Below, piece by piece: positions 4,678-63,843 of a stretch of DNA of 64,000 nt. The notes beneath the pieces were generated by a model. The model saw nothing but the letters and a program-made list of their open reading frames with translations, was not told the origin of the DNA and did not search any database. Position 1 is the stretch's first letter. Each line of letters starts with the position of its first letter. The DNA is from a virus. A program made the position numbers and the translations under genes. The stretch lies in IMG/VR virus record IMGVR_UViG_3300045988_132703. One strand, 5' to 3'.

Positions 4678-4696
4678 TTTGATACACTCCTTTTGA

Positions 4697-4861: not shown

Positions 4862-4893
4862 TTTTGTTTACCTCTTTCTTTGTTTCTGTATAT

Positions 4894-4921: not shown

Positions 4922-5014
4922 TACCTATTTTAGGAAAGTCCTAATTATGGGACTGTAAAGTCGCCCGGGAATTCAAGTTAATTGAAACTAACTAAAAAAT
5001 AAAGGGCTGATTTC

Positions 5015-5194: not shown

Positions 5195-5206
5195 TTGATT
5201 CACCTC

Positions 5207-5395
5207 TTAAAAATCACGGTCATCAAACATAGGCTGGTCAGCCATAAAATAATGATAGCCAGCCAAAACTTTCGGACTAGAATCTTTCGGATAGTAGTCA
5301 TGCGTGGCTTGATTGAGTTTATCACATTCTTCTTGCGAACCACCATAACGATACAAGAAAGTATTGCCATCTTTTTCCATGTAAATGCACTTCAT
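5207..5395 (-). CDS. hypothetical early protein (62 aa)
   Basis: Track ORF with RBS AAAGAGGTAA upstream. Confidence 0.6.
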   Translation of the reverse strand: MKCIYMEKDGNTFLYRYGGSQEECDKLNQATHDYYPKDSSPKVLAGYHYFMADQPMFDDRDF

Positions 5396-10357: not shown

Positions 10358-10365
10358 GGTAAAAT

Positions 10366-13300: not shown

Positions 13301-14320
13301 AATCCAGAAAAAACTTCTAAACTTCAAGCTGGAGACAAGAGTTACTACTATATATCTGTAGACGTAGCTCGTAAAGGCGTGAATACTTCTGTTTAGATAT
13401 TTAAAGTGCTTCCTCAAGAAACTCGTTTCCTCAAGAAACTTGTGAATTCTTTAACATTCCATGATATGCACTTCTAGCTTCAAGCAATAGAGCTTAAAAA
13501 GTTATATCAACGCTATCATCCAAAAGAAATGTGTATTGATGGAACAGGGTTAATAACTAGCCCCTTTAGTTAGAAATGACTATCGAATAACTCTTTTAAT
13601 TGCTGGAAACCTTTATAAGGCAATCAGCAGCGAAGCTCTATATAGAGAACGTTCAACGACTAGTCGAAAGACGTAGGCTCAAGTGAGTCGAAATGGAGAG
13701 CATCCAAAAGGATGAAGATATAGTCTAATCTTATAAGCAATTATAAGCTGCGATTTATTCGCGGGGTAGGCTTAACGAACCTATCTGAATGTAATGTAGG
13801 AGTTGGCTTGATGGATTTCATGGTTATTGATTAGCTTGGTGAGGATGGCGTTATGTATCCTGCGCTAAGTTGCATTAATGACGAAGATTATAAAAAATAT
13901 TCTGGACCTAAAGTAATTTATTTATTAAAAGCTAACGCAACTGAAAATAGTTTAATTCACTCAAACTGTTATACTCAAATTGCGAATGGTTCAGTTAGAT
14001 TCTTAATTTCAGAATAGGAAGCTAAAGTTAAACTTTTAAGTACAAAGAAAGGGCAAAAAATGAAACCAGCTGAACGTTTGGTCCGTCTTGCTCCGCATAT
14101 TGAGACAACTCGTTTGTTTGAAGAAATTTGTAACTTAAAAGTTAAGAATACTGGAACTAATACCGTAGTTGAACAGATTAGCTCTAAAATCAATAAGGAC
14201 CGTTTTTCTGCTTTTGAATATGCGCTTTGGCGTATTAAAGCTGATGAAGATGAATACTTCCGTAAAAAACGTTATAAGAATAGAAGTTTAAGTAAATTTA
14301 TGCTCTTTACGAAGAAATAA
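10366..14320 (+). CDS. terL: terminase large subunit, 7 exons / 6 group I introns (545 aa)
   Basis: Exons are 10366..10875, 11174..11194, 11424..11462, 12468..12507, 12763..12976, 13261..13550 and 13797..14320, summing to 1638 nt in frame. The spliced product reads ...APRAFSKSF...STRGGRRNG|GIIDEVR|DHDGTMLTEVVLP|GDIDPTEPNQQQIY|ITSAGNKG...FAREYLS|M IDYD...YYISVDVARKG...CIDGTGL|GVGLMDF...KDRFSAFEYAL. These are the ATPase and RNaseH-like nuclease motifs. About 12 TAG codons are read as sense. RBS is GAGG. Confidence 0.85.
10876..11173 (+). mobile_element. group I intron terL-A (family V)
   Basis: It follows exon AACGGT. AACGGU can pair with GCCGTT (about 10964) with a U.G at the splice site. It ends in G before GGTATTATT. 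Its 3' half (GCAACGCATAGGGA...CCACGAGGCC...AAAAAGATGAAAAGATATGCTGAACTTATAGG...TAGGATAACAATTTG) is nearly the same as the intron at 60150-60378. Confidence 0.7.
11195..11423 (+). mobile_element. group I intron terL-B (family I, T4 td-like core)
   Basis: P1 is GTGCGT|...GCGCAC with a U.G at the splice site. Core blocks are AATTGCTGGAAA, CAATCAGCAGCCAAGC, GGTTCAACGACTA, GATATAGTCTAATC and TTAACGACC...TTGAATATTTTG, with a terminal G before GACCATGAC. Confidence 0.8.
11463..12467 (+). mobile_element. group I intron terL-C carrying an HNH homing endonuclease gene
   Basis: It follows exon CTCCCT (UCCCU can pair with GGGGG at 11476-11480). Its 5' half has GCTAACGGTGAAATC...AATACCGTGCC, as in the family IV introns of the polymerase gene. 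It ends ...CGACATCTAG before GGAGACATAGAC. The 3' boundary is inferred from frame continuity. Confidence 0.65.
11713..12435 (+). CDS. intron-encoded HNH homing endonuclease (240 aa, 7 TAG as sense)
   Basis: RBS GAGGTGA, then ATG at 11713. The protein is MWKIFEYDGKETNYEVSDDG(Q)VRN...HRLVALTYIENPDNKNIVNHIDGNR(Q)NNLVSNLEWVTYSENTQHA..., an HNH core. It has repeated ...ATYKSITDAA... / ...LQIYDSLH(Q)AAKD... modules typical of NUMOD/IENR-type DNA-binding repeats. It ends at TAA 12433-12435. Confidence 0.75.
12508..12762 (+). mobile_element. group I intron terL-D (family I)
   Basis: P1 is GATAT|TCAAAAGA GTATC with a U.G. The same core blocks as terL-B are present. It ends CGAATGTTTAATG. Splicing joins ATA T|AT ATT to give QQQIY-ITSAG. 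Confidence 0.8.
12977..13260 (+). mobile_element. group I intron terL-E (family I)
   Basis: P1 is GTCCAT|...GTGGAC with a U.G. The core blocks are AATTGCTGGAAA, CAATCAGCAGCCAAGC, GGTTCAACGACTA and GATATAGTCTAATC. It ends CTGAATCTTG. Confidence 0.75.
13551..13796 (+). mobile_element. group I intron terL-F (family I)
   Basis: It follows exon ...ACAGGGT (GGGU pairs with GCCC). The core is AATTGCTGGAAA, CAATCAGCAGCGAAGC, CGTTCAACGACTA, GATATAGTCTAATC and TTAACGAACCTATCTGAATGTAATG. Splicing gives GGG T|TA GGA, i.e. DGTGL-GVGLMDF. Confidence 0.8.
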
Positions 14321-43054: not shown

Positions 43055-46000
43055 TAGTCTGTCCTCTCTGTTCTTAAAGTTAAATGTCCTGTTGAATAAT
43101 CAATATCTGAAATCAACGTAATTGGTTTATAGGGTGAAGTTTTATATGCTTTAGGAATTGCACTATCTCCACGACGAATACACTGAATAATAAGTTTATT
43201 TCCTCTTGTAAACCATGATTTTTCAGTAACCGTTTTTTTACCAGTTACTTCGTCTTTAATAAAAGACTGTTTATCATATTTTACAAATTGAGGTTTATAA
43301 ATTTTAACTTTTACAACTCCATACTGAGTTAATAGAGTTACAATGTTTTTCAGTTTATTTTTTTCAATTACTGTTCCTGCAATATTATGCAATTTATAAA
43401 TTGGAATTTCTTTTCCCTCTTTTGAAGTAAATATCGTTTCTGGAACTGGATCTTCTGGAAGATTAAAGAAATTATCAATTTCCCTTTCTTCAAAATCTAC
43501 TCCATCAAGTTCATGCGCACCATCATAATAACCAACGCTGTCCATTTCCCATTTAGGAATGAAACCAGAACAATATTTATTCCAAATCTCGTCAATGATT
43601 GCTTTATTTAAACTCTCTAAAACTTTAGGCTTTTTCAACCACGGACGAATTTTATCCATGTAAGCCTTATATATTTTTTCCATACGAGTTTGTTCAATCA
43701 TTGCTCCACTCTCTCCAAACTTAACTAAGTCTGGATTAAAATGTGCATTGAAAAATTCAAGAGAATAATCGTCAAGCAAATAATAAAGACCAGATTTACA
43801 ATTCTTTTTTAAGAATTTATTAAAATTATAAACTGCTGCAACATCTTGGTATTTATCTGGAATAATACCATACTTAATCAAAGTTGGCATATTAGCGAGA
43901 GTTAATTTATTTTTCGTTTCTGCAATACTTTCAATATAATTACGAAGAAGACTTTCGCGCGGGATAGAAGAAATTTTATCAAATGCTCCACATTTAATTA
44001 AATTAATAACTTGAAGTTTTGTACTTTTAACTTTCTTCAAGAAATCTTCAAAAGAATTATATGGCCGATTATCAATAATTTCATTTGCATAATCTGCACT
44101 AACTCTTGTGATACCTTTTAATCCATAAATAATTTTATGGTGCGCAACATCTGGAACAAAAGTATAATTTGAAGCATTAATGTCTGGAAGTTCAACATCG
44201 ACACCAAAATTCTTCATCTTGCCAATGGCAGAGCTAATTTTACCATATTGAACAGTTTTTGAAGATTTCTTTTTAGTATCTTCTTCATCTTCTAATTCAT
44301 CTTCAATATCATTGCCTAAAGTATAATCTTCATCTTTTGGATTATCTTCAAGACCACCACTATCAACAATTAAACAAGCCGTATCCCAATAAATTGGGTC
44401 ATAAAAATATGCCAAATTTAATTCTTGAATTGCTACTGTTGAATAAGCTATGGTATGAATAATACTAACTTGCCAAACATAATTTCTTATGCCATTTAAA
44501 ATGTTTTGGTCTGGACTATACCATCATCTTTAAGAAAAGATGTCCTTATTATAGTCTCTGAACGTCTATCTCAATTTAATATATTTTCTATAAAAAATAT
44601 ACTATTGGATATTTCGCTGCGTTTGATTATCCAATCTTAAACGATTTTACCTTACCGTTCCCATTACTGAACGCCGCAAATTAATTACTTAATTTGTTTG
44701 GTTGTTTAAGCTCTAAGGAGTTCCCCGCAATTTAAAGGATTTTCGATATACATCACTGTATAAAGTCGCTTAATTTTAACGAATAACCCATCTGCTTTTC
44801 GGCTTGAGACCAAATCCAATCAATAATGTCTTTAGAAGTTCCTAATTCTTTTCCCCGTTGATACAAATTTTCTTTTAAAGATGCAATTTCTTTAAATTTC
44901 TTTTTAGCAACAGTTTTACGGACTTTATTTGCTTCATCAACATTATAATTTGTAAATGGTAACATAACCGCGCGCATAAGAGATTCTTGGCTGTCCAATA
45001 CACCACCAAATTCCTTCATAAACTCATAAAGTTTATCTTTTTCTTCAGTAGTAGCATTAAGATTATAAATATCTCTTTTTAATTTTTCTGGATGCTCTTG
45101 GTATTCAACAAATTCCTCAACAGGAGTTTTTTGTCCTTTTTCTGGCATTAATCGCATCAAACTATTTGACTGCGCAAGAGTAAGCAAATTTTTTGGTTTA
45201 ATCTGTTTCGCTGTTTGCAATCCAACAGGAGTATCAAATTGGAACAAACTAATAATTTTATTGTCGCCAACAAGCTTCCACATTTCCGGATTATCGTAGT
45301 CAATAACATCTGGATTTAGATATTTCATATAAGTAGCTTTTAAAGAACCTTGCCACTCCATTAAACCATCATTAAGAAGTAATTCCATTGTGGTACGGAT
45401 TCTATCCAAACCATCAATAGTTAAGAACCTTTATACCCTCGGTTTCCCGATATTTATTAGGGGAGTAGACTATCTCTTCATCCTATTGCTAGGAGTCTCG
45501 CACTTCGATTTAAAGGGATTTCACCTACCAGAGTTTCACTGGCCCTACTTCTATTGACATTTATAAAGCTGTCTAAAGAATAGTCGTTACACCTTCTAGA
45601 TTAATCTAGCTTGGCACGGTATTACCATATTATTTAACTTAGGCTTTTACCGTTAGCCGCAAAGCGACACCCTTAAATAAGGTTCACGAGATTATAATAT
45701 ATTATTACTAATATATCAGACATTTGATATATTTAGAAATTTTAGCATATCTTGAGTTTTTCTTTCTAGAGTAATTTCTGAGTTAGTTGAAAGTAAATAC
45801 TAAACAATATTTTTAGTTCTAATATACTAATCATCCATAAATATATACCTTTATCGTACTTAATATGACCCGCGTACTCTTCATCATGTAATTCCCATTG
45901 GCTACATTTTACTCCTTTAGGACTCTTCATCGTCGCGCCAAGTTCTGTAAATTTATCGTTTGTTAAGATAATACCAGAAGCATGAACTCCACGGCGACTA

Positions 46001-48512
46001 ATCAATCCCTCAATGTTTTTTGCAACATTCCAAATATCTTCATGTTTGCCCATTTCTGCAATAAATTGCGGAATAGGCTGATACCCCTTTTCTTCGTCTC
46101 CGTAATAACATTGCTGTAAACTTCTAACAAAACCGCGGTCAATAGGAATTAAAGAACTAAGAAAACTTCCTAATTCTGGTTCGTATCCTAAACCACGTGC
46201 AGCAGTTTGCAATGCTGCTTTTGAAGTTTCAGTGCCAAAAGTTGCGACACTCGTTAATTCTCCGCCAATGGACTCAAAGTAACGACGAACTGCTTCAATA
46301 AATCTTTCACGCTTGGATGCCTGAGAATCAATATCGACCTTTAATTACCCTCGGTTTCCCGATATTTATTAGGGGAATAGACTATCTCTTCATCCTATTT
46401 CTAGGAGTCCTGCGCTTCGAACGGTGATTAAATCTGCTCTACTACTTAGTCGTTACACCACATCTATCCTATAATCTTTACAATGTCCATATTTTCTTAA
46501 AGAAGATATGCTACAGTCAAAATATTCTTTAGCATATTCTGCGGCAGCTTTCTTATTGTCGAAGATTTTTATAATAGAGTTAGTTGAAATTTGAACTAAT
46601 GCACATTTTATCTAATTGCGTGCTGGTCCCATTGTAGAATAAGAATCATATAAATTATATTTTCTATCACACCATTCAAGATTTTCTAATTTATTATTGC
46701 TTCTATTCTTATCTTTATGATTTACCTCTGGTAAATTATCTGGATTAGGAATAAAAGCTTCTGCAACAAGTCTGTGAACAGCGTAATGTTTTGCTATATT
46801 ATTTTCACATAAAGAAATATATTGATAACCAGCCATATTTGTCCAAGCAGACATTTCTTTAGGCTTTTTATATTTATATGAAATAACTCTTCCATCATCG
46901 GTTATCCCATAATCTTCGTGATTTTTAATTCTTTTTTCCATTAATTTTCACCTCTAATCAAGAAGTAAAAATTTATCAACTTTCCTCTAAGAAAAATAGA
47001 TACGGCACGGTATTATCTTTTCGGATTTCCACCGTTAGCCATTTTAAATGACACGCGATAATCAATCGCTTCACAGGATTTTCTATTATGATATTACTAT
47101 CATAAGCGGACTATGATATAAGTTAATCCGCGAGTTCTGCACGTCCTCTTGAACAAAATCTCCAATAAGGAAGTGCAGTTGGACTTTTCAATGGATCGCG
47201 CTGAATAATGTCCATCAAATATGCGCTTAACATTGAACCTACTGAACCACGCCAAGGACCGACTAAAGAGTCACCATCTGTCCAAGCAATATCAATAACT
47301 TTACGAACGGTGATAAAATAAGCACTTAAACGCTCTTGAATTTTTTCGGATACAATCCACATTTCTTGAAGTTCTTCTTCAAGTCTATCAAGATGAATTT
47401 TGTCTAAACAATCTAATTCAAGCCCTTTTTGAATAATACTATAAAGAAAGAATTTATCTTCTTCATATTCACTATTCAAATACTTATTTAAATATTCTCG
47501 TTCGCCAATGATTTTTTGTGGCTCACAGTGGATTAAATGCCAATCAAGAGGAATACGAGGAACAATTTGCTTATATGCCAAATCATATTCTTCAATCATT
47601 GAACAAACTTTATTACTATTTTCAAAAATTTGAGTAATAAAATCGTCATCAAAATAATTAAGTTTCTCTCGAATTTCCTCTGCACTCATCATATAAGTGT
47701 AAGCGTAGAAATCATCAGTCTCTCTATCTCCATCGCCAGAATTAAGAAAACTCTTATGAATTTCTCTATCCTCTTGACGTAAATAGTGGCTATCAGTCGT
47801 AACTGTGATATTAAAATGATTCTTTTTTGCAAACTGCGCAGCTAAAGTATTAAAAGTAACTTGTTCTTTACTCAGCCCAGGCTGAATTTCAATAAAGAAA
47901 TTTTCTTTACCAAAAATTTGTTCACACCAATGGCAAAAATTTAATGCTTTTTCATACTGTTGATTTAAAATCAAATAATCGAAAAAACTACCTAAGCAAG
48001 CTGTTTGTGCAACCACATGTCCAGAATTATTTCCGATAATTTCTTCAATGTCTGAATAATAAGTTGGAACACGTTCCATAAATTGATAAAAACTTCTATT
48101 CCAAGCTCTTGAAGATAATTCTCGAAGTTGTTTATTTCCTATTTTATCTTTTGCTAATAAAATAAAGTGCCAAAATTTATCTTCACCTTTAATAAAGTTT
48201 TTTGCACTTAAATTATCACGGCAAAGATAAATCTCATTTCCTAATACAAGTTTAAAATTTTTAACTTGATTAGCCCATTTATCATTTGGTTCTGTCTCTA
48301 AAATCTTTTTCGCCTTTGATTTTAAAGATTTCATGTATTTTAAAGCTTTGATATAACCGGAAACACTCTCGTGGTCAGTGATTGCTACACCCGTTAAACC
48401 CAATTCCAAAGCATAATCAATTAATTTATCTTCTTTGATAATACAATCGAGCATACGAATGTTAGACCCACTAAGAATAATGGGTATGATTATGTCCACT
48501 AAAATATCCCAT
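43054..48512 (-). CDS. dnaE: DNA polymerase III alpha subunit (DnaE-type, PHP N-terminus), 4 exons / 3 group I introns plus a frame change near the start
   Basis: Exons on the minus strand are 47126..48499 (or from ATG 48512 with a 10-nt gap), 45853..46338, 44779..45427 and 43054..44492, summing to 3948 nt in frame from 48499. Motifs include HNHTHYS / NIRMLDC...AITDHESVSG (PHP), ...RFCSRGRAELAD|VDIDSQ..., HIKYD|FLTIDGL and ...HTIAYSTVAIQELNLAYFY. Confidence 0.8.
44493..44778 (-). mobile_element. group I intron pol-a (family II)
   Basis: The minus strand has AAATTGCGGGGAACTCCTTAGAGC, GCGGCGTTCAGTAATGGGAACGGTAAGG, CAAACGCAGCGAAAT, GTTCAGAGACTATAA and GGTATAGTCCAGACC, ending ...TTTTAAATG. P1 is UCGU/GCGA. 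Boundaries are good to within a few nt. Confidence 0.7.
45428..45852 (-). mobile_element. group I intron pol-e (family IV, ORF-less)
   Basis: The minus strand has GCGGCTAACGGTAAAAGCC, GGTAATACCGTGCCAAGC, GTAACGACTA, AGATAGTCTACTCCCC and CGGGAAACCGAGGGTATAAAGG. Splicing joins ...KYD to FLTIDGLDRI. Confidence 0.75.
46339..47125 (-). mobile_element. group I intron pol-f (family IV) carrying an HNH endonuclease gene
   Basis: P1 is GCGGAT|TAACTT...GTCCGC with a U.G. Core blocks are GGCTAACGGTGGAAATCC, AATACCGTGCC, GTAACGACTA, AGATAGTCTATTCCCC and CGGGAAACCGAGGGTAATTAAAG. Confidence 0.8.
46453..46941 (-). CDS. intron-encoded HNH homing endonuclease (162 aa, 1 TAG)
   Basis: RBS GAGGTGAAAA. Track ORF 46612..46941 (…HRLVAEAFIPNPDNLPEVNHKDKNRSNNKLENLEWC...) continues through a TAG to TAA 46453-46455. 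Confidence 0.75.
48464..48473 (-). other. 10-nt coding gap (candidate translational bypass or +1 frameshift site) in the polymerase gene
   Basis: The minus strand reads ...CAT ACC CAT TAT TCT TAG TGG G TCT AAC ATT CGT ATG CTC GAT. The take-off UCU is followed by TAG. An identical UCU 10 nt downstream is in the frame that continues as NIRMLDC... Confidence 0.45.
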
Positions 48513-48613: not shown

Positions 48614-50671
48614 AACATTGCCCTACCATTTTCAAGCTCATAATCTTCTATGATAACTTGAGGAGTATAATTACCCATAAATTGATTTAAATTCATTTTA
48701 CCATAAACGGTAATTGCACCAATAGAATAAGACTGAACTTTTTGTGCAAAATCGGCATCTTTAAATTTAACAAAAGCAATCCCATCTTTTTCAATTTTAA
48801 CGGAATCTTTATTTTTGCCCATGATAAACACATCATTTTGGGTAAAAAGAATTTTATTGACAATAACTTTAGGTTCTTCAACACCTTTGCCATAAACATT
48901 TTTTATGGCGTCCAAATCAACACAAATAGATTCAATATCGCCGCAGAAATTTCCATCAAATTCAAAATCTACAAGATAGCTGTTTTCACCCAAATTGATA
49001 TTAGCCAATTTCTTATTACAGTATTTAATAAATTTATTCAAATTCTTTTCTGCAATCCCAATACCTGCCGCGCTTTCATGTCCTTCAGCATATTCGACCA
49101 ATCCACTCTTAGTACAAAAATCCTTAAAATTTGCAAGAGGACTATTTGAATTAACCCTAAAAGAACCTTTAAATACATTATCATCTGCTAAGCGAATTAC
49201 AATAGCAGGACGGTTATACATTTGACAAAGCTTCATCGCAATTAAGCCAGTTAAATTAGGATTGACATATCTTGATTCGTCGTCATCAAGGGCAACTAAA
49301 AGAACTTTGTTTTCATCTAAACATTCTTTTTCAATTTTCCCACAAAGAAATTGGACACTTTGGTCAATCATTTTATTTTGATGATTACGTGCATTAGTGG
49401 CGATTCGTGCGGCTTTATCTGCAATGACTTCTGTATCGCCAGGCTTTGCCCCACGTTTGGTAGATGGTTCAGTATCATTCGGACCGCTAATAAATGCTTT
49501 AAATAAAGTTTCTTTTTCTTCCATTGTCCCTACACGAATTACCGCATTAACGAGTGGCGCGATGAAAAAAGAAACATCTGTAGGAGTAATATCATCAATA
49601 TTTCCTATCGAGAAAGATTGTTTTAAAGCAAATCGAGTCAAACCATAATTCTTTAAATTTGTTAAACCTTGACTGATAATATATCTTGTCTCAAGATTTC
49701 TTAAATCCATCATGTCACCAACGATACCCATTGCTGCGAGATCAAGGAAATTGTCAGCGTAATTATAACCATATTTTATATCAAAATATTTAATAAATTT
49801 ATAGACAACTCCAGCACCAGATAAATCTCGGTTAGGATATTTCCCTAATTGATTATTAATAACAATCGCATTTTCGCTTTCTGCTTCACACAAGTGATGG
49901 TCAAGAATAAGAATATCAAAACCTTGTTCTTTTAATATTTTATGTTCTTCATATTGATTAGAACCTGCATCTGGAATAACAATTAACTTCGCTTCATGAG
50001 GAACTTTATCTAACTCAACACCATGCTATTTCCCAGAGTGCATAGACCAAAGAATTTGAATATTCGGTTTAATCAATTTTAAATAATTATAAAGAATAGC
50101 AGAAGATGTAACTCCATCCTGATCAGACATTACTACCCCGACTTTTGTCGTATTTATTCAGCAATTGCTGAAATTTATTATACTTTCTATTTAAATAAAA
50201 AGTATAAATTTTAAGGGATTAGACTATACAATCTCTTTCGAGTCGGTATTATAGTCGTTGAACGTTTCTCTTATTTATTACTAGACTTAGAGACTTCGCT
50301 GCGTTTGATTACCCAATCTTCAATGTTTTTACCTTACCGTTCCCGTTACTGAACGCCAATATAAAATTTCTTATATATCTTGGTAATTGAAGTTCTAAGG
50401 GACTCCCCGCAATTTAACCGATTTAACGTGGACTCAGACTTTTAGGTTAATCCACTACGTCATAAATAATTGAATTAGCATCTAAATGCTTCTTTAAAAG
50501 TTCCGCGCCAGCATCTATATTCTTCAAAAGAAGTGGCGAATAGAGAACTTCTTTCGAAGGTTTCAAATATTGAATCATTTCATCGTGATTCAATCCTCTT
50601 GCACGCAATAAAGTTTCGACATAAGATTCATTTGGCAAATGATTAATTTTACTATTTAATACATATTTCAT
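48610..50671 (-). CDS. recJ: RecJ-like DHH-family single-strand exonuclease, 2 exons / 1 intron (579 aa, 1 TAG)
   Basis: Exons are 50450..50671 and 48610..50127. The junction is ...IIYDVVD|SDQDGVTSSAIL (DHH motif I/II region). Other motifs are ...LILDHH... and ...GHESAAGI... Confidence 0.7.
50128..50449 (-). mobile_element. group I intron recJ-b (family II)
   Basis: P1 is GTGGAT|TAACCTAAAAGTCTGAGTCCAC. Core blocks are AAATTGCGGGGAGTCCC, GGCGTTCAGTAACGGGAACGGTAAGG, CAAACGCAGCGAAG, CGTTCAACGACTATAATACC and GTATAGTCTAATCCC. It ends ...GTAGTAATG. Confidence 0.8.
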
Positions 50672-51735: not shown

Positions 51736-53758
51736 AATAAACGAGAACTCACTTTCTTAATTTTAGGTTTCTTTTGAAAATCTATTTCGTTTTCAATATA
51801 AGTTGAACTTTCTGCGGAAGTAATAGTTAAAGGGCTGTTAAAAGGAGGCAATTCTTCTTTTGGCTCTTTAAAATCTTCTCTTGTTGCAACCACTTCTTCA
51901 TTCACTTCCATATTTTCGTTTTCTTGCTCTTCATTGCCTAAACCAATTTCAGGAGTTAATTCAGTTTCATTAGATTCTTCTACTGAATTTTTAAGTTTTT
52001 CAGTATTAACAAAATAATCAGTTTTAAATTTAATTTCTTTAAAATCTTTTATTTCTTCATAATCACCAGTCGTGATAAGAATATCTTTTTCGCGGCAAGT
52101 ACCCAAATCAAGTATTGTCCAAATTTTTACTTGATTATACCTACTACGACGATTCTTATAAACATCAATAACATGAGTAGGCATTGGCAAACCAAGAGAT
52201 TCAATTAATGGAGAAATAGTTGCTTTCTCTTCATCACTAATTCTAACCATGATACAACCAACATCAGCTTTATCTGCCACGGCTTTTGAAGAACGAATAA
52301 AACTTTGATCACGCACTCCTCGACCATTTTTAAAATCGCCACTTAACTGAGTTGAACTTGACATAAAAATATGAAGTTCAGTAGCTAAATCTTTTAAAGC
52401 AGTTGATAGCAAGAAAAGTTGAACCGTTTAATCCAATGTTTCCATTGGCACTGACTATCTCTTAACTGTATTAAAACAGCTATACCCATTTCGATTAGCG
52501 TATCAATAGTTAATCTACTTCCTCTTGACAAGGAATAGTCGATACAGGATTTTATTCCCACGGGATTGCCCACAACTTTGCTTGTTTGGGTTTCCCCGTT
52601 AGCCATTTACATGACCCCGCTGATTAACGGAAAAGGTATATAAGAGGACATTCGTTTACACATATCCTCGCGCAGATTATTTGATTTAAATTCAGTCAAA
52701 AGTCCTGGACTTGAAAAAATATAATCATAAAAAACATACTCTATCTAATCAACTTGCTTATGATTTCTTACACAAGCTTCAATTTGATTAATAGACGGGT
52801 CTGGAATTTTATCCAAAATAAAATTATCGTTAAAACATTCAATTACATCAAGTGCTTCATCAATAATTTTTTCTTCGAGAAAATTACATTCCGCATTTAA
52901 AATTTTATCTTCATTAACACCAGATACATTTGCCAATAGCATTGTTTGGACTTCATCTCTATCCAACTCTGTTGTAATAAATAAAATTTTATTATTTAAT
53001 CCAGTATCAACCCAACATTCTTTATGCCAATCGTAATATTTAGGGATTGCTAATCTACAAGCATCTCCTACCGCAAGACGTGTTTTGCCTACGCCACTTC
53101 CTGCACTTCGAATATAATATTTACCTAATCTTGCGCCAGATACAACTGTATTATAAATAGAACCAGATAAAGGTTGCCCAATTTCTGGTTTCTTTTTTAA
53201 AGATTGTACTAACTCGCGCAAACCAACAGAAGCACCGGCGGAAGTATTCAAATCACTGGTATTATATTCTTTTTCTACTATTGATAAACGTTTTTTAACT
53301 TCATCAAAAATTGTAGAAATATCCGCCTGCTCAAAACGTTCTTGAGTTTCTTTGTAATTTGCAGCTAAAGGATTATCGCAATAAAAATAACTTATATCGA
53401 AGCCGCTCTTTTTAAGAGAACGGAGCAAAGAGTATTTTTTTAAACGATTATAATAATAATCAAAAGTATCTAGATTACTTAATCCTTCGCAGTCTTTAAT
53501 ATATTCAAGTCCATTGCGCTTTTCATATTCACTTTTTATTTCTTGGCGCTCTTGAAAGAAATTATCTAAATCGACAACACTAATCGTTCTCGCGCCAGAA
53601 GCATAAAAATTCTGAATTGCTTGATAAATATACCTATTCAACAAATCATCAAAATCTGTAAAATTTATATCGTATCTATCTGCTTGAGAAAGGATTGTCG
53701 TGTTTTTCATTAAGCATCCAATAACTTGCATCATTGAATTCTTATCAGACAATGGCAT
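51732..53758 (-). CDS. dnaB: DnaB-like replicative helicase, 2 exons / 1 intron (1 TAG)
   Basis: Exons are 52664..53758 and 51732..52424. Walker A is SAGSGVGKTRLAV. TAG at 52742-52744 is read through (…KQVD(Q)IEYVFYDYIF...). The junction is NLRED|VQLFLLSTALKDLATELHIFMSSSTQLSG. Confidence 0.7.
52425..52663 (-). mobile_element. group I intron dnaB-g (family III, T4 td-like)
   Basis: P1 is GAGGAT|...GTCCTC with a U.G. Core blocks are GGCTAACGGGGAAACCC, GGCAATCCCGTGGGAAT, GTATCGACTATTCC and AGATAGTCAGTGCC. The P9 hairpin is CCAATGGAAACATTGG, and the intron ends ATTAAACG. Confidence 0.8.
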
Positions 53759-57668: not shown

Positions 57669-60588
57669 TTATTCGACAATTAATCCGGTTACATATTGCC
57701 CATCTTTAAGATTAATAGATTTTACGCCAACCGTTGCACGACTAGTAGTAGGAATTTCATTCAAAGAAATTTTTATAATTGCTCCTGTACTAGCAACAGA
57801 AACAGTTTTTGAATCTTCGCGCACGGGTGCAAAGCCAGCTAATTTATCCCCATCATTTAGCTTATGAATAATTGCTCCTTTTGCTGCGCGGGAAGTAACT
57901 GAAAATTCATCTAAATCAGTCTTTTTAACTTGTCCTGCTTCAGTTACGGAGATAAGCTCCTTAGCATCTTTTCTAATGACACAAGCGTCACAAACTTCAT
58001 CACCAGGGCGCAGAGTAATTCCACGGACACCGATAGTATTTCTACCTTGAGTATTAATTTCAGTTAATGGGAAAATAACGACATAGCCGTTTTTGGTAGT
58101 GATCGCGAGATTATCTTTATTATTCACAATCATTACTCTTTTAATAAAATCACCATCAGTTAATTTAATCGCAGAAACGCCTTTAATACGCTTAATATTA
58201 TATTCTCTTAAAAGAGTCTTTTTAACAGTTCCCTTTTGAGTAACAAAAAGGACTTCTTCTCCTTGAGATTTATCTGTATCGCTGACAATATAAGTAATTG
58301 TCTCGTCAGGCGCGAGTTCAAGGATTGTACTAATTGGAGTTCTGCAATCAAGAGTGAGATTACTTAGTGCAAGATTGTATACTTTACCAAGAGAACTAAA
58401 AAGTAAAAGATTATTTAGATTAGAATCTTTTACCGTTTGAATAATTTGCTCATTATTGCCTAACTTAACTTTCATACCTCTGCCGCGACGTGCAGTGATA
58501 AGAGTAGTATCTTCATAAGCGTAAAGAGTATTTAAATTAGTTAAATGAACAACCATTTGTTTCTTTTCTATTGGCTCATCGGTCTCTTCATTAATGGTTA
58601 AATTCATAATTTGAGTGCGACGTTCGTCACCAAACTTTGATGCAACATCCTGCCAACCTTTAATTAATTGTTTATCAAATTCTTCTTCATTATCAAGAAT
58701 ATATCTTAATCCATCAATTTTTGCAGTAAGTTCTTCAGCTTCTTTTTCAAATTTCTCAACTTCCATGTGCGCTAAGCGAGAAAGTTTAATATCAAGAATT
58801 GCTTTAGCTTGAATTTCATCAAGTAAAAAGTTAGATTGCAAATTTTTATTTGCCTCTGCCGTTGAAGAAGATTTTTTGATTACTTCAATAACTTCTTCGA
58901 TTCGTGCAAGCGCAATTAAAATGCCTTCAACAATATGAAGTCTTGCTTCTGCTTTTGCTAAATCATATTCATAACCACGACGATAAACTACTTTCTCATG
59001 GTCAATATGAGCTTGAAGCAATTCTCTCCATCCAAATACTCTTGGGAAACGGCCATTATCAAGCATCGTCATATTAATGCTAAAATGATGCTGTAAAGAT
59101 GTTTCTTTATAAAGAATCTGAAGCACTTTAGAAACATTGGCTTTTTTAGTAAGATAAATTTTAATATTAGGAGTAGAACCTGTCAAATCATTATAGCGCT
59201 CAATACCAGGACAAAGTCCTTCATTTAAAATTCTATCAAGCTCTCCACGAATTGTTCCAGTATAAACGCTATAAGGGATTTCTTTAACAATTAAACAATT
59301 TTCACTCTCGTCATACTCAATAACAGAGCGGAGTTTGCAAGCTTTACCAACACCATTCTTAATACTTTCTTTTACTTCGTCAGCATTAAGTAAAATTGCT
59401 CCAGTGGCGAAATCTGGCGCGCAATAAATTTCATCAAAATCGCAGTCTGGATTTTGAAGCAAAGTAATTAAAGCGTTATTTACATCTTTAATATTAAATT
59501 GAGGACAACTAGAGCTTGCGGCGACCATGCCGCTCCACCATTTCGGGTGGCACTGACTATCTTTTACTTTCTATAAATAGAAAGGACACCATTTCAGACT
59601 GTGTACCAATAACAGCCTTACTCCCCCGATTCGGGGATAGTCGATACAGGATTTATTTTAATATGTCTATATCTTCGACCGCAATATATATCATTAAAAT
59701 ATTTCCCACGGGATTGCCTTCTAATTGTAAAATGCTATTCCAATTCCAAAACTTTAATTTTTAAATTAAATTTGGCATTACAATCGTTCAGGTTTCCCCG
59801 TTAGCCACATTAAGTGACCCCGCTGGTAAGCGGTAAAGTGTTACACAGGCAATTCTTAATTACCAATTCCACTAGTGCCATTGACAATATTAAAATAGCC
59901 CTTTCCAGTTAAAACGGCAGGATATTGTTCTGTGTCATCGTAATTATCTCGCCATTCTTTAATGGTATTTTTTTCAATATCTTTGAATAGATATTCAGCG
60001 AGAGGGGACAAACGTGCAGAAGTATAACGAGGAGCAGACCAGTTTCCGCTTTCTGCGAGAGTACCGTAAGCGCCATCTACTTCAACCAAAGGATAGCGCA
60101 TAGAGAATGGTTGCCCCGCACGCATAATAACTCCAACACAAGATGAGTCCAAAATGTTATCCTAAAAGCTTTTTATCTTTTAGTTCTTACAATTTCTTGT
60201 AAGTTCAGCATATCTTTTTAGCTCGCGCTATCGGGGCCTCGTGGAGAGATTATATCTTTTCACTCTCTATGCGTTGCGGCTGGCTATATTAAATATAGCC
60301 TTCACCTCTGATTAGCTTGACTTAAAGTTTTAGCCTTCCAGATTTTTTCCCCAATTTAACCACGGCAATTCAATCTTTACCGTGGATATACATTCTCATT
60401 GCTGAGCCTACTGCTTTCAAAGTCTTTTTAAAAGGCTTATCAGCAGTAAATTTATCTGTTTTCATACAGTAGAAAATTTGCCGAGCGGACGGTTTCAAAA
60501 AATCTCGCGCATCCACGAGAGCGCGAGACTGCAAAACCGCACCAGAATATTGAGCAAAACTTTCTTCAATAATCGGTGTTAGTTCCAT
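57669..60588 (-). CDS. type IIA topoisomerase subunit A (GyrA/ParC-like), 3 exons / 2 introns (784 aa)
   Basis: Exons are 60379..60588, 59862..60149 and 57669..59525. The spliced product reads ...SRALVDARDFLKPSARQIFY...MRMYIHG|DSSCVGVIMRAGQPFSMRYPLVEVDGAYG...APRYTSARL...NGTSGIG|VAASSSCPQFN... The C-terminal part has repeated beta-pinwheel-like blades. Confidence 0.8.
59526..59861 (-). mobile_element. group I intron topoA-h (family III)
   Basis: The minus strand has TGGCTAACGGGGAAACC, GGCAATCCCGTGGGAAAT, GTATCGACTATCCCC and AGATAGTCAGTGCC, with a P9 hairpin CCACCCGAAATGGTGG. The 3' boundary was set by analogy and by frame. Confidence 0.7.
60150..60378 (-). mobile_element. group I intron topoA-j (family V)
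   Basis: P1 is CCACGGT|AAAGATTGAATT GCCGTGG with a U.G. The 3' half GCAACGCATAGAGA...CCACGAGGCC...AAAAAGATATGCTGAACTTACAAG...TAGGATAACATTTTG matches terL-A. Confidence 0.8.
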
Positions 60589-60589: not shown

Positions 60590-63500
60590 TTACTCCTTTA
60601 TTTCTGAAAAGTCAATTTTACTAAATACAAAATCTTTACGAGGTTGAACATCCTCGCCCATCAAATCATAAAGCATTTGAATAGAATCATCATCTGAGAC
60701 AAGAATATCCATTCGTTGATTCTCAGGATTAAACATAGATTCTTTTGCTTTTGCTGCACTCAATGCGCCCAAGCCTTTTTCACGACTAACATCGCCTTTA
60801 ATTTGCGCTCGAGCTTTGTTAAACTCTTCATCGCTGTAAAAATAAGTGTGTTTCTTACCATTTGTAACAATGTAAAGAGGAGAGCGTAACCAGCATAGTC
60901 TATGCTCTTGAATGAACTCAGGAGCAAGATATTGTAGTGCAGACATAATAAGCAAACCAATATGATAACCATCGGACATTTATACCCTAGCTTTCGCTAT
61001 ATTTCAAGGGATTAGACTATACAATCTCAGTAGAGTCAGTATTATAGTCGTTGAACGTTTTTCCTTTTAAGGAAACTTCGCTGCGCTTGATTACCCAATC
61101 TTCAATGATATTACTGTACCGTTCCCGTTACTGAACGCCACCAAAATAATTACTTACTTGGTTTAGTTATTGAAGCTCTAAGGGACTTCCCGCAATTTAA
61201 CTGATTTAGTGCGGACTCAACTTTTGGTTAATCCGCATCCGAACAAATAGCAATTCGTCCATAACGTAGTTTAGAAGAATTGTATTTTCCGGGGATAATA
61301 TTCATCGCACTTAGGAGCAATTTAATTTCTTCATTTTCAAAAATTTTATCCTCGCTATTGGATAGGCAATTAATAATTTTCGCGTAATCCATTATTTCTA
61401 ATGGTGCTGACTATCTTTTAATAGAAAATTCTATTACAGCCATTTCGAACTATGTATCAATAATAGTCCTACGAGCCGATTAAGGCATCTAGTCGATACA
61501 GGTATTTTATTCCCACGGGATTGCCTTGCCTGCATAGGTTTAGGTTTCCCCGTTAGCCGCAATGAGCGACCCCACTGATAAGTGGCAAAGCTGTATTAGG
61601 GCAATTTTGTTTACCCCTAATGGCCAAAATTCCGTAATGCTTTTCATCTCGCGCAATGGCCATAGCTGCCGCAGCAGAATTTCCTTCTACAATTAAGAGA
61701 GTTGAATCTTGCCCAAGATATTCTGCATCAGACAATTTATCAGAAGAAAAAACTTTTCTCTTTTGATTCTTCTCAATATCTTTAGTTGCATTTAGAACAG
61801 CTGTTCTTGCTTTTTCTGCTGCTTTTTCTGCTTTTTCTTCCTTGGTAAGAAAATCTTCAATTTTCTTTTCTTCATTGGGATATTGTAAGCAGAACTTCTC
61901 AAATCCTTCGCTAAAAGCTTTACTTGCAAGACTGCGCAATTCTGGATTGTTAATCTTCGTTTTTGTTTGATTAGCGAAAGAAGGATTAACAACTTTACAA
62001 CTAACTGCATAAACCAAACCAGTTCGTGCAAGCTCGCCAGTTAAACTTTTAATTTTCTTTTGAAGAGTTTTAGTAATTGAAGTTTTTAGACCAGTGATAG
62101 GAGTACCACCTTCAGCATTAGCAACACCATTTGTGAAACAATAAAAATGTTCATTGCGCGCTTTCGTCCAAACACAAGCAATTTCAACTGAATTTGTTCC
62201 ATCGCTTAAAAAGTAAGAAATCGGATTTTCATGAACTTTATTTGCAGCTTTTTGCATAACCAAATCCATAAGACCATTTTCACTTTTATAGGTAATACTT
62301 TGTGCTGGAGAGACAGTTTCATCTCGAAGTTCAAAAGTCAATCCTTTGGTTAGAAAACTTAAATTTTCACAAGTCTTACATAAATGCTCAAATTTAATTT
62401 CAATAGGCTCAAGATTAAAGACTTGCGCATCTGGCTTATATTTTACAAAAGTACCGTTGGGCAAATTTTTATCATTATTCACTTCGGTATAATCAATCAT
62501 ATTTCCGCGTTCAAAACAAATTGAAGCTACTCGATTATCACGAACTGACACAACTGAAAATTCTTCAGATGAAAGGCAAGTAGCTTTCGCTCCAATCTTA
62601 AATATTCAACAAGAGTCGTTAATTCCTGCCCGCGACTTTACTCGCTGCTCATAGTTTCCTATGAGAATAGACTATATCTTTTTCAATCCCATTTCGACTC
62701 ACTTGAGTCTACTCTACTAATTATCTCTTGATAATTTATACCTAATAATTTATTCCAATCTGGACATTTATTTTCAAGAAGATATTTTTCGATAGTCGTT
62801 GAACTTTCATCTATAATATAACCAAATTCTCTCATTTTGTTAATTCTAAAAAGTATTGCTTGGCGTAGCGCTTCGTCTGCGCCGTATTTTCCAATTGAAA
62901 AACTTTTTTGTTTTTGCAATTTTCTTTTGTCATTATATCTGGTATCATTTTCAAAAGTAGACCAGCGAACCCGGATTCTTGGAGTTCCTCTAGCCCCTTT
63001 TTCTATGCTAATGCCATTAAAATTAAAAGAATTTGATTTAATTGGTTTAGAGTTCTTTTTATTTTCAGAACAGGTAACTAATCTTAAATTGGACTTTTGA
63101 TTATTTAATCCATTGCCATCTATGTGATCAACTATGATTTTAGGATTGGTTACTTTCATAATATAACGATGTGCTTTTCCATAAGTATCATGCTGAGCAT
63201 AATCAGTTCTTGAATTATGCAATTCTTTTGGTACCAAATACCAACCACTCTTAGGAAAAGTTTCATAATCCTCATCGTCTAAAAGAATCTCTTTTCCGCA
63301 TTTCATTAAAAATTTTTTCATCTATAACCTCTTTATAGGGTTATATTATAGATGCTTAGCTGCGTTAGGTTATCCAATCTTTAACGATTTTACTATACCG
63401 TTCCCGTTACTGAACGCCATTTAATTATTACTAATTAAATTTAGTTGTTAAAGCTCTAAGGAATTTCCCGCAATTAAAGATTTTTTAGAACAGCTATGAA

Positions 63501-63843
63501 GTCAACCGTTCAAACCAACTGCAAACTGATAATCTTTTGATGTAAATTTACCGCCAGTATGCGCATGAGAATAAATAGCTTCAAGAACATTTTCGCCATT
63601 TTCTCTTGTTCCAAAAGGAACTCCACGCCCATAATCTCTTACAGAAATGTAATTATCAGGATAAAGTACAATTTCAATTTTATTACCAAATCCCATAATA
63701 AATTCGTCAATTGAATTAGAAATAATTTCTTGGATGCCGTTGTACACGCCTTCCATATCGTTGGAACCAAGATACATCGGGATTCTCATACGAACAGCTT
63801 CCTTAAATTGAAGCGTTTCGATAGAGTTTATATCATAACTCAT
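60590..63843 (-). CDS. type IIA topoisomerase subunit B (GyrB/ParE-like), 4 exons / 3 introns (619 aa)
   Basis: Exons are 63505..63843, 61613..62596, 61231..61380 and 60590..60976, summing to 1860 nt. The spliced product reads ...AVRMRIPMYLGS...HTGGKF...AVGLNG|IGAKATCLSS...LLIVEGNSAAAAMAIARDEKHYGILAIRG|KIINCLS...ENEEIKLLLSAM...LRYGRIAICSDAD|SDGYHIGLL... Confidence 0.8.
60977..61230 (-). mobile_element. group I intron topoB-c (family II)
   Basis: P1 is GCGGAT|TAACCAAAAGTTGAGTCCGC. It is nearly identical in its core blocks to recJ-b. It ends ...GGGTATAAATG. Confidence 0.8.
61381..61612 (-). mobile_element. group I intron topoB-i (family III)
   Basis: It follows ATTAGGGGT. Core blocks are GCGGCTAACGGGGAAACC, GGCAATCCCGTGGGAAT, GTATCGACTAGATGCC and AGATAGTCAGCACC, with a P9 hairpin CCATTAGAAATAATGG. 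It ends ATTACGCG, and splicing gives RG|KIINCLS. Confidence 0.7.
62597..63504 (-). mobile_element. group I intron topoB-d (family II) carrying an HNH-AP2 endonuclease gene
   Basis: P1 is GAACGGT|...GCTGTTC with a U.G. The 5' half has TTAATTGCGGGAAATTCCTTAGAGC, GGCGTTCAGTAACGGGAACGGTATAG and CTAACGCAGCTAAGC. The 3' half has GGAATTAACGACTCT and GATATAGTCTATTCTC. It ends ...TATTTAAG. Confidence 0.75.
62683..63321 (-). CDS. intron-encoded HNH endonuclease with AP2-like DNA-binding region (212 aa)
   Basis: The track ORF has [40 protein letters not shown] (HNH) and [19 protein letters not shown]... (AP2-like). Confidence 0.75.
   Translation of the reverse strand: [212 protein letters not shown]

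What the first reader, a model, noticed from the sequence alone, without database searches (positions are those of the whole stretch)
47120..47135. Unrelated genes share the same short 5' exon sequence at intron insertion points
Introns in three different genes are inserted after nearly the same hexamer and start the same way. These are GCGGAT|TAACTT...GTCCGC in PolIII alpha (47126), GCGGAT|TAACCAAAAGTTGAGTCCGC in topo-B (61231) and GTGGAT|TAACCTAAAAGTCTGAGTCCAC in recJ (50450). The two family V introns both follow (A/C)ACGGT, in terL at 10875 and in topo-A at 60379. Topo-B intron d also follows AACGGT. Target recognition therefore seems limited to the 5-7 nt that pair with the internal guide sequence. 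This pattern is expected from spread by reverse splicing into ectopic sites, and not from homing-endonuclease-driven homing, which needs long specific targets. Thirteen of the 16 introns have no endonuclease ORF.
Basis: inference. Interest (0 to 1): 0.65.

Follow-up and report, generated by a model that had tools for sequence, protein, structure and literature searches.

The report
Shared splice-site hexamers of phage introns
Sixteen self-splicing group I introns in an uncultured gut phage do sit after a few recurring six-base exon sequences, but comparison with intron-free sister phages suggests this reflects base-pairing needs and DNA-level homing that carries a few exon bases along, not proven RNA-level reverse splicing.

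Summary
All quoted junctions are exact, checked against intron-free alleles in sister phage contigs. The window has 16 group I introns in six essential genes, and only three carry an endonuclease ORF.

Each shared hexamer is the exon strand of the P1 helix and pairs with the intron's guide sequence. The sharing exceeds random expectation (P=0.003). Most of it comes from 11 of 16 introns following Gly GGT or Asp GAT codons inside catalytic motifs (P=5e-8). It is not enriched within intron families. PolIIIα intron 1 belongs to a different family from the topo-B and recJ introns.

The reverse-splicing inference is weakened:
- Close intron-free alleles lack the hexamer at most sites (GCTGAT, GTCGAT, GAAGAT).
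- Intron-bearing alleles carry a cluster of linked changes from -15 to +6 (12-15% against 1.85% background), including bases outside P1. That is a co-conversion signature.
- At least five of the 13 ORF-less introns have endonuclease-bearing versions at the same site in relatives.
- The hexamers are not depleted elsewhere in the window.

Only two paralogous pairs (recJ/topo-B c and terL-1/topo-A 1) look like true ectopic moves guided or constrained by the guide sequence. Their route is unresolved.

The parts
47126..47131 (-). PolIIIα (DnaE-like) 5' exon strand of P1, GCGGAT (Ala-Asp of the catalytic AD|VDID motif). This is the site named in the finding.
46339..47125 (-). Intron polA-1 (787 nt, family F5). 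Guide sequence GTCCGC at 47106-47111. HNH endonuclease ORF at about 46456-46941, which contains one TAG.
60977..61230 (-). Intron topoB-c (254 nt, family F1). Follows GCGGAT (61231-61236) in the Toprim DAD|SDG motif. Guide GTCCGC at 61211-61216.
50128..50449 (-). Intron recJ-1 (322 nt, family F1, 82% identical to topoB-c). Follows GTGGAT (50450-50455) in the DHH motif VVD|SDQDG. Guide GTCCAC at 50428-50433.
52425..52663 (-). Intron hel-1 in the DnaB-like helicase (239 nt, family F2). Follows GAGGAT (52664-52669). Guide GTCCTC at 52644-52649.
10876..11173 (+). Follows GAACGGT (10869-10875). Guide GCCGTTC at 10959-10965.
60150..60378 (-). Intron topoA-1 (229 nt, family F3). Follows CCACGGT (60379-60385) in the HG|D motif. 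Guide GCCGTGG at 60360-60366.
62597..63504 (-). Follows GAACGGT (63505-63511). Guide GCTGTTC at 63488-63494. HNH/AP2 endonuclease ORF at 62686-63321.
61381..61612 (-). Intron topoB-b (232 nt, family F2). Follows AGGGGT. Guide GCCCT.
59526..59861 (-). Intron topoA-2 (336 nt, family F2). Follows ATTGGT. P1 is GGU|AAUU paired with AAUUGCC.
45428..45852 (-). Intron polA-2 (425 nt, family F5). Follows TACGAT. P1 is weak (GAU|A paired with UGUC).
44469..44778 (-). Intron polA-3 (310 nt, family F1). Follows ATTCGT. Guide GCGA.
11195..11423 (+). Intron terL-2 (229 nt, family F4). Follows GTGCGT. Guide GCGCAC.
11463..12437 (+). Intron terL-3 (975 nt, family F5) with an I-HmuI-like HNH/NUMOD ORF (about 11713-12432, with several TAG codons). 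Follows CTCCCT.
12508..12762 (+). Intron terL-4 (255 nt, family F4). Follows AGATAT. Guide GTATC.
12977..13233 (+). Intron terL-5 (257 nt, family F4). Follows GTCCAT. Guide GTGGAC.
13551..13796 (+). Intron terL-6 (246 nt, family F4). Follows CAGGGT. Guide GCCC.

Best explanation
The recurring hexamers are the exon halves of the P1 helices of 16 group I introns from five sequence families. They recur for three layered reasons.

(a) Shown. Every intron must follow a U that forms a U·G wobble with its guide sequence. In this 34% G+C genome the introns sit almost only on G-rich, U-ending Gly (GGT) and Asp (GAT) codons of catalytic motifs: Toprim DxD, RecJ DxDxDG, the PolIIIα acidic triad, GyrA HGD and the terminase ATPase. 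Unrelated introns therefore converge on GGAU/GUCC-type and CGGU/GCCG-type P1 helices.

(b) Inferred. Two pairs of true paralogues (recJ-1 with topoB-c, terL-1 with topoA-1) descend from ectopic moves to sites that fit the inherited guide sequence, followed by compensatory guide changes.

(c) Inferred from population data. Within this phage population the introns move between alleles of the same gene at the DNA level. This is endonuclease-driven homing or recombination, in cis or in trans, and it carries about 2-15 nt of donor 5' exon with the intron. The P1-matching hexamer is therefore part of the mobile unit rather than a pre-existing property of the empty site.
For: - P1 and guide pairing were assigned for 15 of 16 introns and fold as predicted.
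- 11 of 16 introns follow GGT or GAT, against 10.6% of U-ending sites (P=5e-8). G+C at -6..-2 is 3.1 of 5, against 1.6.
- Families come from all-against-all blastn. Sharing of at least 5/6 bases occurs in 2 of 19 within-family pairs and 9 of 101 between-family pairs.
- Presence/absence polymorphism is seen among contigs 92-97% identical.
- Empty alleles read GCTGAT/GCCGAT (Pol), GTCGAT/GTTGAT (recJ), GAAGAT (helicase), GCTGAT (topo-B c), AATGGT (topo-B a), AGAGGT (topo-B b), TTCAT (polA-3), GGAC (terL-6) and TATGAC (polA-2).
- Fixed differences between the window and empty alleles are 12% at -15..-7, 15% at -6..-1 and 11% at +1..+6, against 1.85% background (Fisher p from 2e-4 to 4e-7).
- Intron-bearing relatives share the window's 5' flank haplotype. 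Sites fully diagnostic of intron presence within ±400 nt are only -9, -7, -4 (polA-1) and -2, +2 (polA-3).
- The window's intron-linked haplotypes match native exon sequence of diverged intron-free relatives: recJ GTGGAT in L010 and helicase CGCGAGGAT in L012.
- Endonuclease-bearing versions of the ORF-less introns polA-3, topoA-1, topoA-2, terL-1 and terL-5 occur in relatives, including one decaying GIY-YIG gene.
- PMC2504315 describes the same signature (asymmetric 5' exon co-conversion, C instead of U at empty sites) and states that reverse splicing gives no co-conversion.
Against: - No experiment shows homing here.
- recJ-1, hel-1, topoB-a, topoB-b and polA-2 were found in no other contig, so their donors are unknown. 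Four of these five have neither an ORF nor a known ORF-bearing version.
- The fully linked tracts are very short (9 nt or less). Some linked changes (-4 in four introns, -2 in polA-3) improve P1, so post-insertion selection rather than co-conversion could explain those.
- For topoA-1 and terL-1 the target already exists in empty alleles, which is what guide-directed insertion predicts.
- The route of the two ectopic moves cannot be read from sequence.
Confidence: 0.55

Rival explanations
1. ORF-less introns spread to new genes by reverse splicing into any transcript carrying the 5-7 nt complementary to the guide sequence. Reverse transcription and recombination then fix the insertion, and this is the main cause of the shared hexamers.
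For: - Two paralogous pairs in unrelated genes share their target and covary with the guide.
- For recJ-1/topoB-c the ±6 nt flanks match 10/12, against P=4e-4 for random inter-gene pairs.
- For family F3 the target pre-exists in empty alleles.
- Perfect targets GTGGAT and GAGGAT exist unoccupied in diverged relatives.
- Thirteen of 16 introns lack an ORF in the window.
- Reverse splicing needs only 4-6 nt (PMC3984707).
Against: - Co-conversion-like flank changes include non-pairing positions.
- Empty close alleles are mismatched to the guide at 8-9 of 11 sites.
- Sharing is not enriched within families, and polA-1 and topoB-c are from different families.
- GYGGAT is not depleted: 31 found against 33 expected, with 4 unoccupied copies in the host genes themselves.
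- recJ-1 is only 82-83% identical to topoB-c, so no recent jump occurred.
- Endonuclease-bearing versions exist for 5 or more introns.
- No reverse transcriptase was looked for or seen.
- The pathway has no direct experimental support in any system (PMC3984707).
Confidence: 0.2
2. Ectopic DNA-level transposition. An intron copy was pasted into a look-alike site (GAT-NNN-GAT, encoding DxD) by illegitimate or relaxed-specificity endonuclease break repair. A few donor exon bases came with it, and this directly made the flanks alike.
For: - The recJ intron-bearing allele differs from all 15 empty alleles by GTC/GTT to GTG and by TGC (Cys) to TCT (Ser). This yields GTGGAT|TCTGAT, 11/12 identical to the topo-B c flanks GCGGAT|TCTGAT of L015/L020.
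- All three focal sites encode D|xD.
- PMC3984707 lists relaxed endonuclease specificity as an alternative route to ectopic integration.
Against: - Position -5 kept the recipient base, and the guide changed instead (GUCCAC).
- The +2 change also creates a second P10 pair (UC/GA), so selection could explain it.
- No endonuclease is associated with the F1 introns at these two sites.
- The similarity does not extend beyond ±6 nt.
Confidence: 0.15
3. Coincidence plus codon composition only. There is no shared history behind any of the hexamer matches.
For: With the last three bases fixed, the number of 5/6 matches is not significant (P about 0.1, and 0.19 for exact matches).
Against: recJ-1/topoB-c and terL-1/topoA-1 are clear sequence paralogues that align from or near the splice sites. 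Their guides covary with the exon. The 12-mer similarity has P=4e-4.
Confidence: 0.1

Closest known systems
Bacillus cereus-group nrdE/nrdF/recA group I introns (Tourasse & Kolstø 2008, PMC2504315)
   Same: Both show presence/absence polymorphism among near-identical genomes, asymmetric 5'-exon co-conversion next to the intron, empty sites with C instead of U at -1, exon motifs matching the guide only in intron-bearing alleles, and ORF-less and ORF-bearing versions of one intron.
   Different: Here the host is an uncultured gut phage with 16 introns in six genes within 64 kb. The linked tracts are much shorter (15 nt or less, against up to 145 bp). TAG is read as Gln.
Phage T4 td / nrdB / nrdD introns with I-TevI, I-TevII and I-TevIII (homing, co-conversion, trans-homing; PMC2988022, PMC2790892 for reviews; details from established knowledge)
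   Same: Both have group I introns in conserved catalytic regions of essential phage genes, an intron starting with an in-frame stop, endonuclease gain and loss, and homing with flanking-marker conversion.
   Different: T4 has three introns, each in its own gene. No shared target hexamers across genes have been stressed there.
Related nuclear rDNA group I introns at heterologous sites (Bhattacharya et al. 2005, PMC1299323; Roman & Woodson, cited in PMC3984707)
   Same: Closely related introns sit at different sites whose short 5' flank matches the guide sequence. This is the classical circumstantial argument for reverse splicing.
   Different: Those targets are rRNA. Here the targets are protein-coding, and population data show flank conversion that the reverse-splicing model does not predict.
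SPO1/SP82 DNA-polymerase introns with HNH nickases I-HmuI and I-HmuII, and Bastillevirinae introns (PMC11878797)
   Same: The intron ORFs are of the HNH + NUMOD type (the terL-3 ORF hits PF22083, I-HmuI_NUMOD-like). The phages infect Firmicutes, and genes can carry several introns.
   Different: The host genes differ (DnaE-like polymerase, topoisomerase II, RecJ, helicase, terminase) and intron density is far higher. Nicking activity was not tested.
Recoded intron endonuclease in Agate phages (Borges et al. preprint 10.1101/2021.08.26.457843)
   Same: Endonuclease ORFs inside introns of early genes carry recoded stop codons, which should delay their translation until late infection.
   Different: The recoded codon here is TAG (Gln), not TGA (Trp). 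It is seen for HNH, GIY-YIG and LAGLIDADG ORFs in this lineage.

Membership tests
Group I self-splicing intron (Rfam RF00028) | Match to the covariance model of the catalytic core | tested here: met
   Four introns score above the gathering threshold (73-98 bits). Eight more score 21-44 bits in the whole-window scan. The remaining four score 15-29 bits in local scans. Every sub-threshold intron is a sequence paralogue of a better-scoring one.
Group I self-splicing intron (Rfam RF00028) | 5' exon ends in U paired with G of an internal guide sequence (P1); intron ends in G | tested here: met
   All 16 follow U and end in G. The guide was found within the first 17 nt of the intron in 14, at nt 84 in terL-1 and at nt 132 in polA-2 (weak, 3-4 bp).
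Group I self-splicing intron (Rfam RF00028) | Precise removal restores an uninterrupted conserved ORF | tested here: met
   Uninterrupted alleles of all six genes exist in sister contigs and match the spliced window sequence codon for codon.
Group I self-splicing intron (Rfam RF00028) | Guanosine-dependent self-splicing in vitro or in vivo | not testable with these tools
Spread by reverse splicing (RNA-level transposition) | Related introns at non-homologous sites whose 4-6 nt 5' flank matches the guide | tested here: met
   recJ-1/topoB-c (82% identical) follow GTGGAT/GCGGAT. terL-1/topoA-1 follow GAACGGT/CCACGGT. The guides covary.
Spread by reverse splicing (RNA-level transposition) | No conversion of flanking exon sequence | tested here: not met
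   Fixed differences from -15 to +6 are in 6- to 9-fold excess, including non-pairing positions (-7, -9, -10 to -13).
Spread by reverse splicing (RNA-level transposition) | Unoccupied sites already carry the guide complement | tested here: inconclusive
   Not in close relatives at 8-9 of 11 sites. Yes for topoA-1, topoA-2 and the terL-1 core. Yes in diverged relatives for recJ and helicase.
Spread by reverse splicing (RNA-level transposition) | A reverse transcriptase available to copy the recombinant RNA | not tested
   The window's ORFs were not screened for reverse transcriptase domains.
Endonuclease-mediated intron homing | Homing endonuclease gene in the intron (or acting in trans) | tested here: met
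   Three HNH ORFs lie in the window. Relatives carry LAGLIDADG (polA-3, topoA-1), GIY-YIG (topoA-2, terL-1) and HNH (terL-5) versions at the same sites. Eight introns have none known.
Endonuclease-mediated intron homing | Presence/absence polymorphism at the same site among close relatives, with co-converted flanks | tested here: met
Endonuclease-mediated intron homing | Site-specific cleavage of the empty allele | not testable with these tools
   This needs enzyme assays.

The most novel reading that the evidence does not exclude
The ORF-less introns of this phage lineage (especially families F1 and F3) do transpose between unrelated genes at the RNA level. A GUCC-type or GCCG-type guide sequence would direct them into U-ending Gly and Asp codons of catalytic motifs. 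The flank changes would then be later tuning of P1 and P10. That would make this intron-rich, polymorphic gut-phage population the first natural system outside rDNA in which group I reverse-splicing transposition could be shown.
Probability: 0.2. Interest if true: 0.7.

Novelty: new member of a known kind. Interest (0 to 1): 0.4.

Why it matters
How group I introns reach new genes is still an open question. Reverse splicing has only circumstantial support, and that comes from rDNA (PMC3984707). This phage population offers many natural 'before and after' alleles for 16 introns. They show that the guide-matching hexamer travels with the intron, or is tuned after arrival, rather than simply marking a ready-made target. 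This is a caution against reading mechanism from intron-bearing sequences alone. The population is also a workable system for testing guide-exon compatibility, the endonuclease gain and loss cycle, and the timing of endonuclease expression by stop-codon recoding.

Tried and rejected
- Close annotated relatives: none in the phage collection. There are only matches of about 58 nt or about 70% identity to intron cores in Staphylococcus, Enterocloster, Lak and SPβ-type phages, and these do not cover P1. They could not be used to compare targets.
GYGGAT occurs 31 times against 33.3 expected. MACGGT is over-represented (43 against 19.9), partly because intron cores contain it.
- Enrichment of shared hexamers within intron families: not found.
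- Search for donor alleles of the recJ and helicase introns in metagenomes: 8 more loci, all intron-free at these sites.
- A clean P1 for polA-2: only a 3-4 bp helix across a 125-nt insertion was found.
- Reading polA-1 as a paralogue of topoB-c and recJ-1: rejected. It groups with polA-2 and terL-3 and has a different P2.
- P10 as the explanation for the shared 3' TCYGAT: only 2 firm pairs (UC/GA), so this is left open.
Full report
**What the window is.**
- The window is AT-rich (34.5% G+C) and has no close relative among deposited phages. Only short intron-core matches were found.
- Its DnaE-like polymerase is 38% identical to those of Enterocloster and SPβ-type phages.
- Sister contigs of 176-180 kb occur in IMG/VR and in human-gut assemblies.
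- Late genes on the + strand carry in-frame TAG codons. These alternate with CAA/CAG between alleles, so TAG is read as Gln. No tRNA gene lies in the window.

**The observation.**
- On the minus strand the three quoted junctions read CTCGCGGAT|TAACTT…GTCCGC (47126), GATGCGGAT|TAACC…GTCCGC (61231) and GTAGTGGAT|TAACC…GTCCAC (50450).
- terL-1, topoA-1 and the first topo-B intron follow AACGGT, CACGGT and AACGGT.
- I mapped all 16 introns: terL ×6, PolIIIα ×3, RecJ ×1, DnaB-like helicase ×1, topo-II A ×2 and topo-II B ×3.
- The boundaries are fixed by uninterrupted alleles of every gene in sister contigs 92-97% identical to the window.
- All 16 follow U and end in G. Twelve match RF00028 in the whole-window scan and the other four in local scans.
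- Only three contain an ORF, all HNH.

**What the hexamers are.**
- Each hexamer is the exon strand of P1. Within the first 17 nt of the intron (nt 84 in terL-1, nt 132 in polA-2) lies a guide sequence whose first G pairs with the terminal U and whose following bases pair with -2 to -7. Minimum-energy folds give the same hairpins.
- Guide and exon covary: GUCCGC with GCGGAU, GUCCAC with GUGGAU, GUCCUC with GAGGAU, GCCGUUC with GAACGGU, and GCCGUGG with CCACGGU.
- The common 'TAA' start of the three focal introns is an in-frame stop codon at the first intron codon. topoB-a starts with TGA in the same position.

**Is the sharing more than chance?**
- Eleven intron pairs share at least 5/6 bases, against 3.2 expected for random U-ending sites of the same genes (P=0.003). 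The excess disappears (P about 0.1) once the last three bases are held fixed.
- The real non-randomness is that 11 of 16 introns follow GGT or GAT (10.6% expected; P=5e-8) and that -6..-2 is twice as G+C-rich as background.
- The codons involved are Gly and Asp residues of catalytic motifs: Toprim DAD|SDG and RG|K, GyrB-like LNG|I, GyrA-like HG|D and IG|V, RecJ VVD|SDQDG, PolIIIα AD|VDID, KYD|FL and GYS|F, and terminase RRNG|GIIDEV|R.

**Families.**
- All-against-all blastn gives five families:
  - F1: recJ-1, topoB-c, polA-3, topoB-a
  - F2: topoA-2, topoB-b, hel-1
  - F3: terL-1, topoA-1
  - F4: terL-2, -4, -5, -6
  - F5: polA-1, polA-2, terL-3
- Sharing of at least 5/6 bases occurs in 2 of 19 within-family pairs and 9 of 101 between-family pairs.
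- polA-1 (F5) shares GCGGAT/GUCCGC with topoB-c (F1) although their P2 regions differ. topoB-a (F1) shares AACGGT with F3. hel-1 (F2) uses GAGGAT/GUCCUC. This cross-family sharing cannot come from one intron lineage copying itself.
- Only recJ-1/topoB-c (82% identical, alignable from nt 1) and terL-1/topoA-1 (79% over the 3' half) look like descendants of ectopic moves. For the first pair the ±6 nt flanks match 10/12, with P=4e-4 for random inter-gene pairs.

**The empty sites.**
- In 14 or more close intron-free alleles the hexamer is usually absent:

| Site | Empty alleles | Window |
|---|---|---|
| PolIIIα | GCTGAT / GCCGAT | GCGGAT |
| recJ | GTCGAT / GTTGAT, then TGC (Cys) | GTGGAT, then TCT (Ser) |
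| helicase | GAAGAT | GAGGAT |
| topo-B c | GCTGAT | GCGGAT |
| topo-B a | AATGGT | AACGGT |
| topo-B b | AGAGGT | AGGGGT |
| polA-3 | TTCAT | TTCGT |
| polA-2 | TATGAC | TACGAT |
| terL-6 | GGAC | GGGT |

- Against the window's guides, these empty alleles have a P1 mismatch at 8-9 of 11 sites. Only topoA-1, topoA-2 and the terL-1 core pre-exist.
- Fixed differences between the window and the empty alleles reach 12% (-15..-7), 15% (-6..-1) and 11% (+1..+6). Background is 1.85% and +7..+15 is 1% (Fisher p from 2e-4 to 4e-7).
- Several changes lie outside any pairing: -7 and -9 in polA-1, -7 in hel-1, -10 and -13 in topoB-b, and -12, -11 and -7 in topoA-2.
- Relatives that do carry an intron share the window's 5' flank. 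Within ±400 nt the only sites fully diagnostic of intron presence are -9, -7, -4 (polA-1; 4 against 12 alleles) and -2, +2 (polA-3; 5 against 10).
- The window's intron-linked states equal the native exon sequence of diverged intron-free relatives: recJ GTGGAT in L010 and helicase CGCGAGGAT in L012. This is what import from a diverged donor would give.
- The pattern is the asymmetric 5'-exon co-conversion described for Bacillus nrdE/nrdF introns. That paper states co-conversion accompanies endonuclease homing and is absent with reverse splicing (PMC2504315).

**Endonucleases.**
- The ORF-less state is not a stable property of these introns. Sister genomes carry, at the same sites and with the same flanks:
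  - polA-3 with a LAGLIDADG gene
  - topoA-1 with a LAGLIDADG gene
  - topoA-2 with a GIY-YIG gene (truncated in one contig)
  - terL-1 with a GIY-YIG gene
  - terL-5 with an HNH gene
- Other introns sit 6 nt from topoB-c and 15 nt from polA-2 in relatives.
- So '13 of 16 lack an ORF' does not argue against homing.

**Depletion test.**
- GYGGAT occurs 31 times in the window against 33.3 expected. MACGGT occurs 43 times against 19.9.
- Within the six spliced host mRNAs, 3 of 7 GYGGAT and 3 of 8 MACGGT sites are occupied, and 4-5 of each remain empty.
- The hexamer is favoured but is neither sufficient nor avoided.

**Mechanism, with what is shown and what is inferred.**
- Shown:
  - P1 pairing defines every 5' splice site.
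  - Insertion sites are G-rich Gly and Asp codons in catalytic motifs.
  - The introns are polymorphic in the population.
  - Intron presence is tightly linked to a short 5' exon haplotype that improves P1.
  - Endonuclease-bearing and endonuclease-free versions coexist.
- Inferred:
  - Allelic spread is DNA-level homing or recombination with short co-conversion, and selection keeps the intron together with its P1 strand.
  - Two older ectopic moves landed on sites fitting the inherited guide.
  - Cross-family identity is convergence on the few strong, U-ending P1 substrates that conserved Gly and Asp codons offer in an AT-rich genome.
- Whether the ectopic moves used reverse splicing or illegitimate break repair cannot be decided. 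The intron-linked Cys-to-Ser change in RecJ makes its flanks 11/12 identical to topo-B c alleles. It fits either donor-flank carry-over or P10 tuning.

**Comparison and novelty.**
- Everything fits known group I intron biology: T4, SPO1 and B. cereus-type homing, and the endonuclease gain and loss cycle. The reverse-splicing argument is the one long used for rDNA introns (PMC1299323, PMC3984707).
- What is unusual is the density: 16 introns in 64 kb, six of them within 660 nt of terL coding sequence, together with the richness of matched empty alleles.
- I rate it a new member of a known kind, with moderate interest.

Noticed in passing
window 9500-14320 (+), e.g. TAG at 10525-10527 and 10738-10740; L029/L031/L032 terL: Late genes use in-frame TAG. 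TAG alternates with CAA/CAG at the same codon between sister terL alleles, so TAG is read as Gln (code 15-like). No suppressor tRNA gene lies in the window.
   Followed up: partly
window 11174-11194, 11424-11462, 12438-12507 (+): terL is cut into seven exons by six introns within 660 nt of coding sequence. This leaves micro-exons of 21, 39 and 70 nt, an unusually high intron density for a phage gene.
   Followed up: partly
window 11713-12432 (+), 46456-46941 (-); L004 13787-, L020 8076-, L018 9089-, L003 4219-, L013 8158-, L026 4832-: Intron-encoded HNH, GIY-YIG and LAGLIDADG ORFs contain in-frame TAG even when the intron sits in early, standard-code replication genes. This would delay endonuclease translation until TAG suppression is active. 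The same idea was proposed for a TGA-recoded Agate phage intron (bioRxiv 10.1101/2021.08.26.457843).
   Followed up: partly
window 50026-50028 (-) in recJ exon 2; also helicase about 52700-52800 (-): A few in-frame TAG codons also occur in replication genes on the minus strand (recJ 'GKqHG', helicase 'VDqIEY'). Recoding is therefore not strictly confined to late genes.
   Followed up: no
L013/L016-L019 about 8007-9046; L003/L011 about 4035-5239; L004/L005/L008 about 12588-12907: Sister phages carry different introns 6 nt downstream of the topoB-c site (after TCAGAT, with a GIY-YIG ORF) and about 15 nt upstream of the polA-2 site. The same catalytic motifs are hit repeatedly by different introns. 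The alleles with the +6 intron carry GCGGAT with no intron after it.
   Followed up: partly
window 50125-50127 (-); L001-L041 recJ alleles: The intron-bearing RecJ allele has Ser (TCT) where all 15 intron-free close alleles have Cys (TGC/TGT), at the x position of the DxDxDG motif. This is an amino-acid change linked to intron presence.
   Followed up: partly
L020 9421-9753: The GIY-YIG gene in the topoA-2 intron is truncated to 111 codons in one relative, full length (237 aa) in another (L018) and absent in the window. These are three stages of endonuclease decay at one site.
   Followed up: partly
window 12415-12437 (+): The terL-3 HNH ORF runs into the 3' strand of P7 (…GAGATAGTCC…) and the intron ends 10 nt later, so coding sequence and ribozyme core overlap.
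   Followed up: no
window-wide: MACGGT is about twice as frequent as expected (43 against 19.9). Many copies lie inside intron cores (…TAACGGGAACGGT…, GGCTAACGGT…), so raw hexamer counts in this genome are inflated by the introns themselves.
   Followed up: partly
window introns recJ-1, hel-1, topoB-a, topoB-b, polA-2: These five introns were found in none of about 15 sister contigs, including the closest one (about 97.5% identical). The window's phage is the most intron-laden member sampled.
   Followed up: yes
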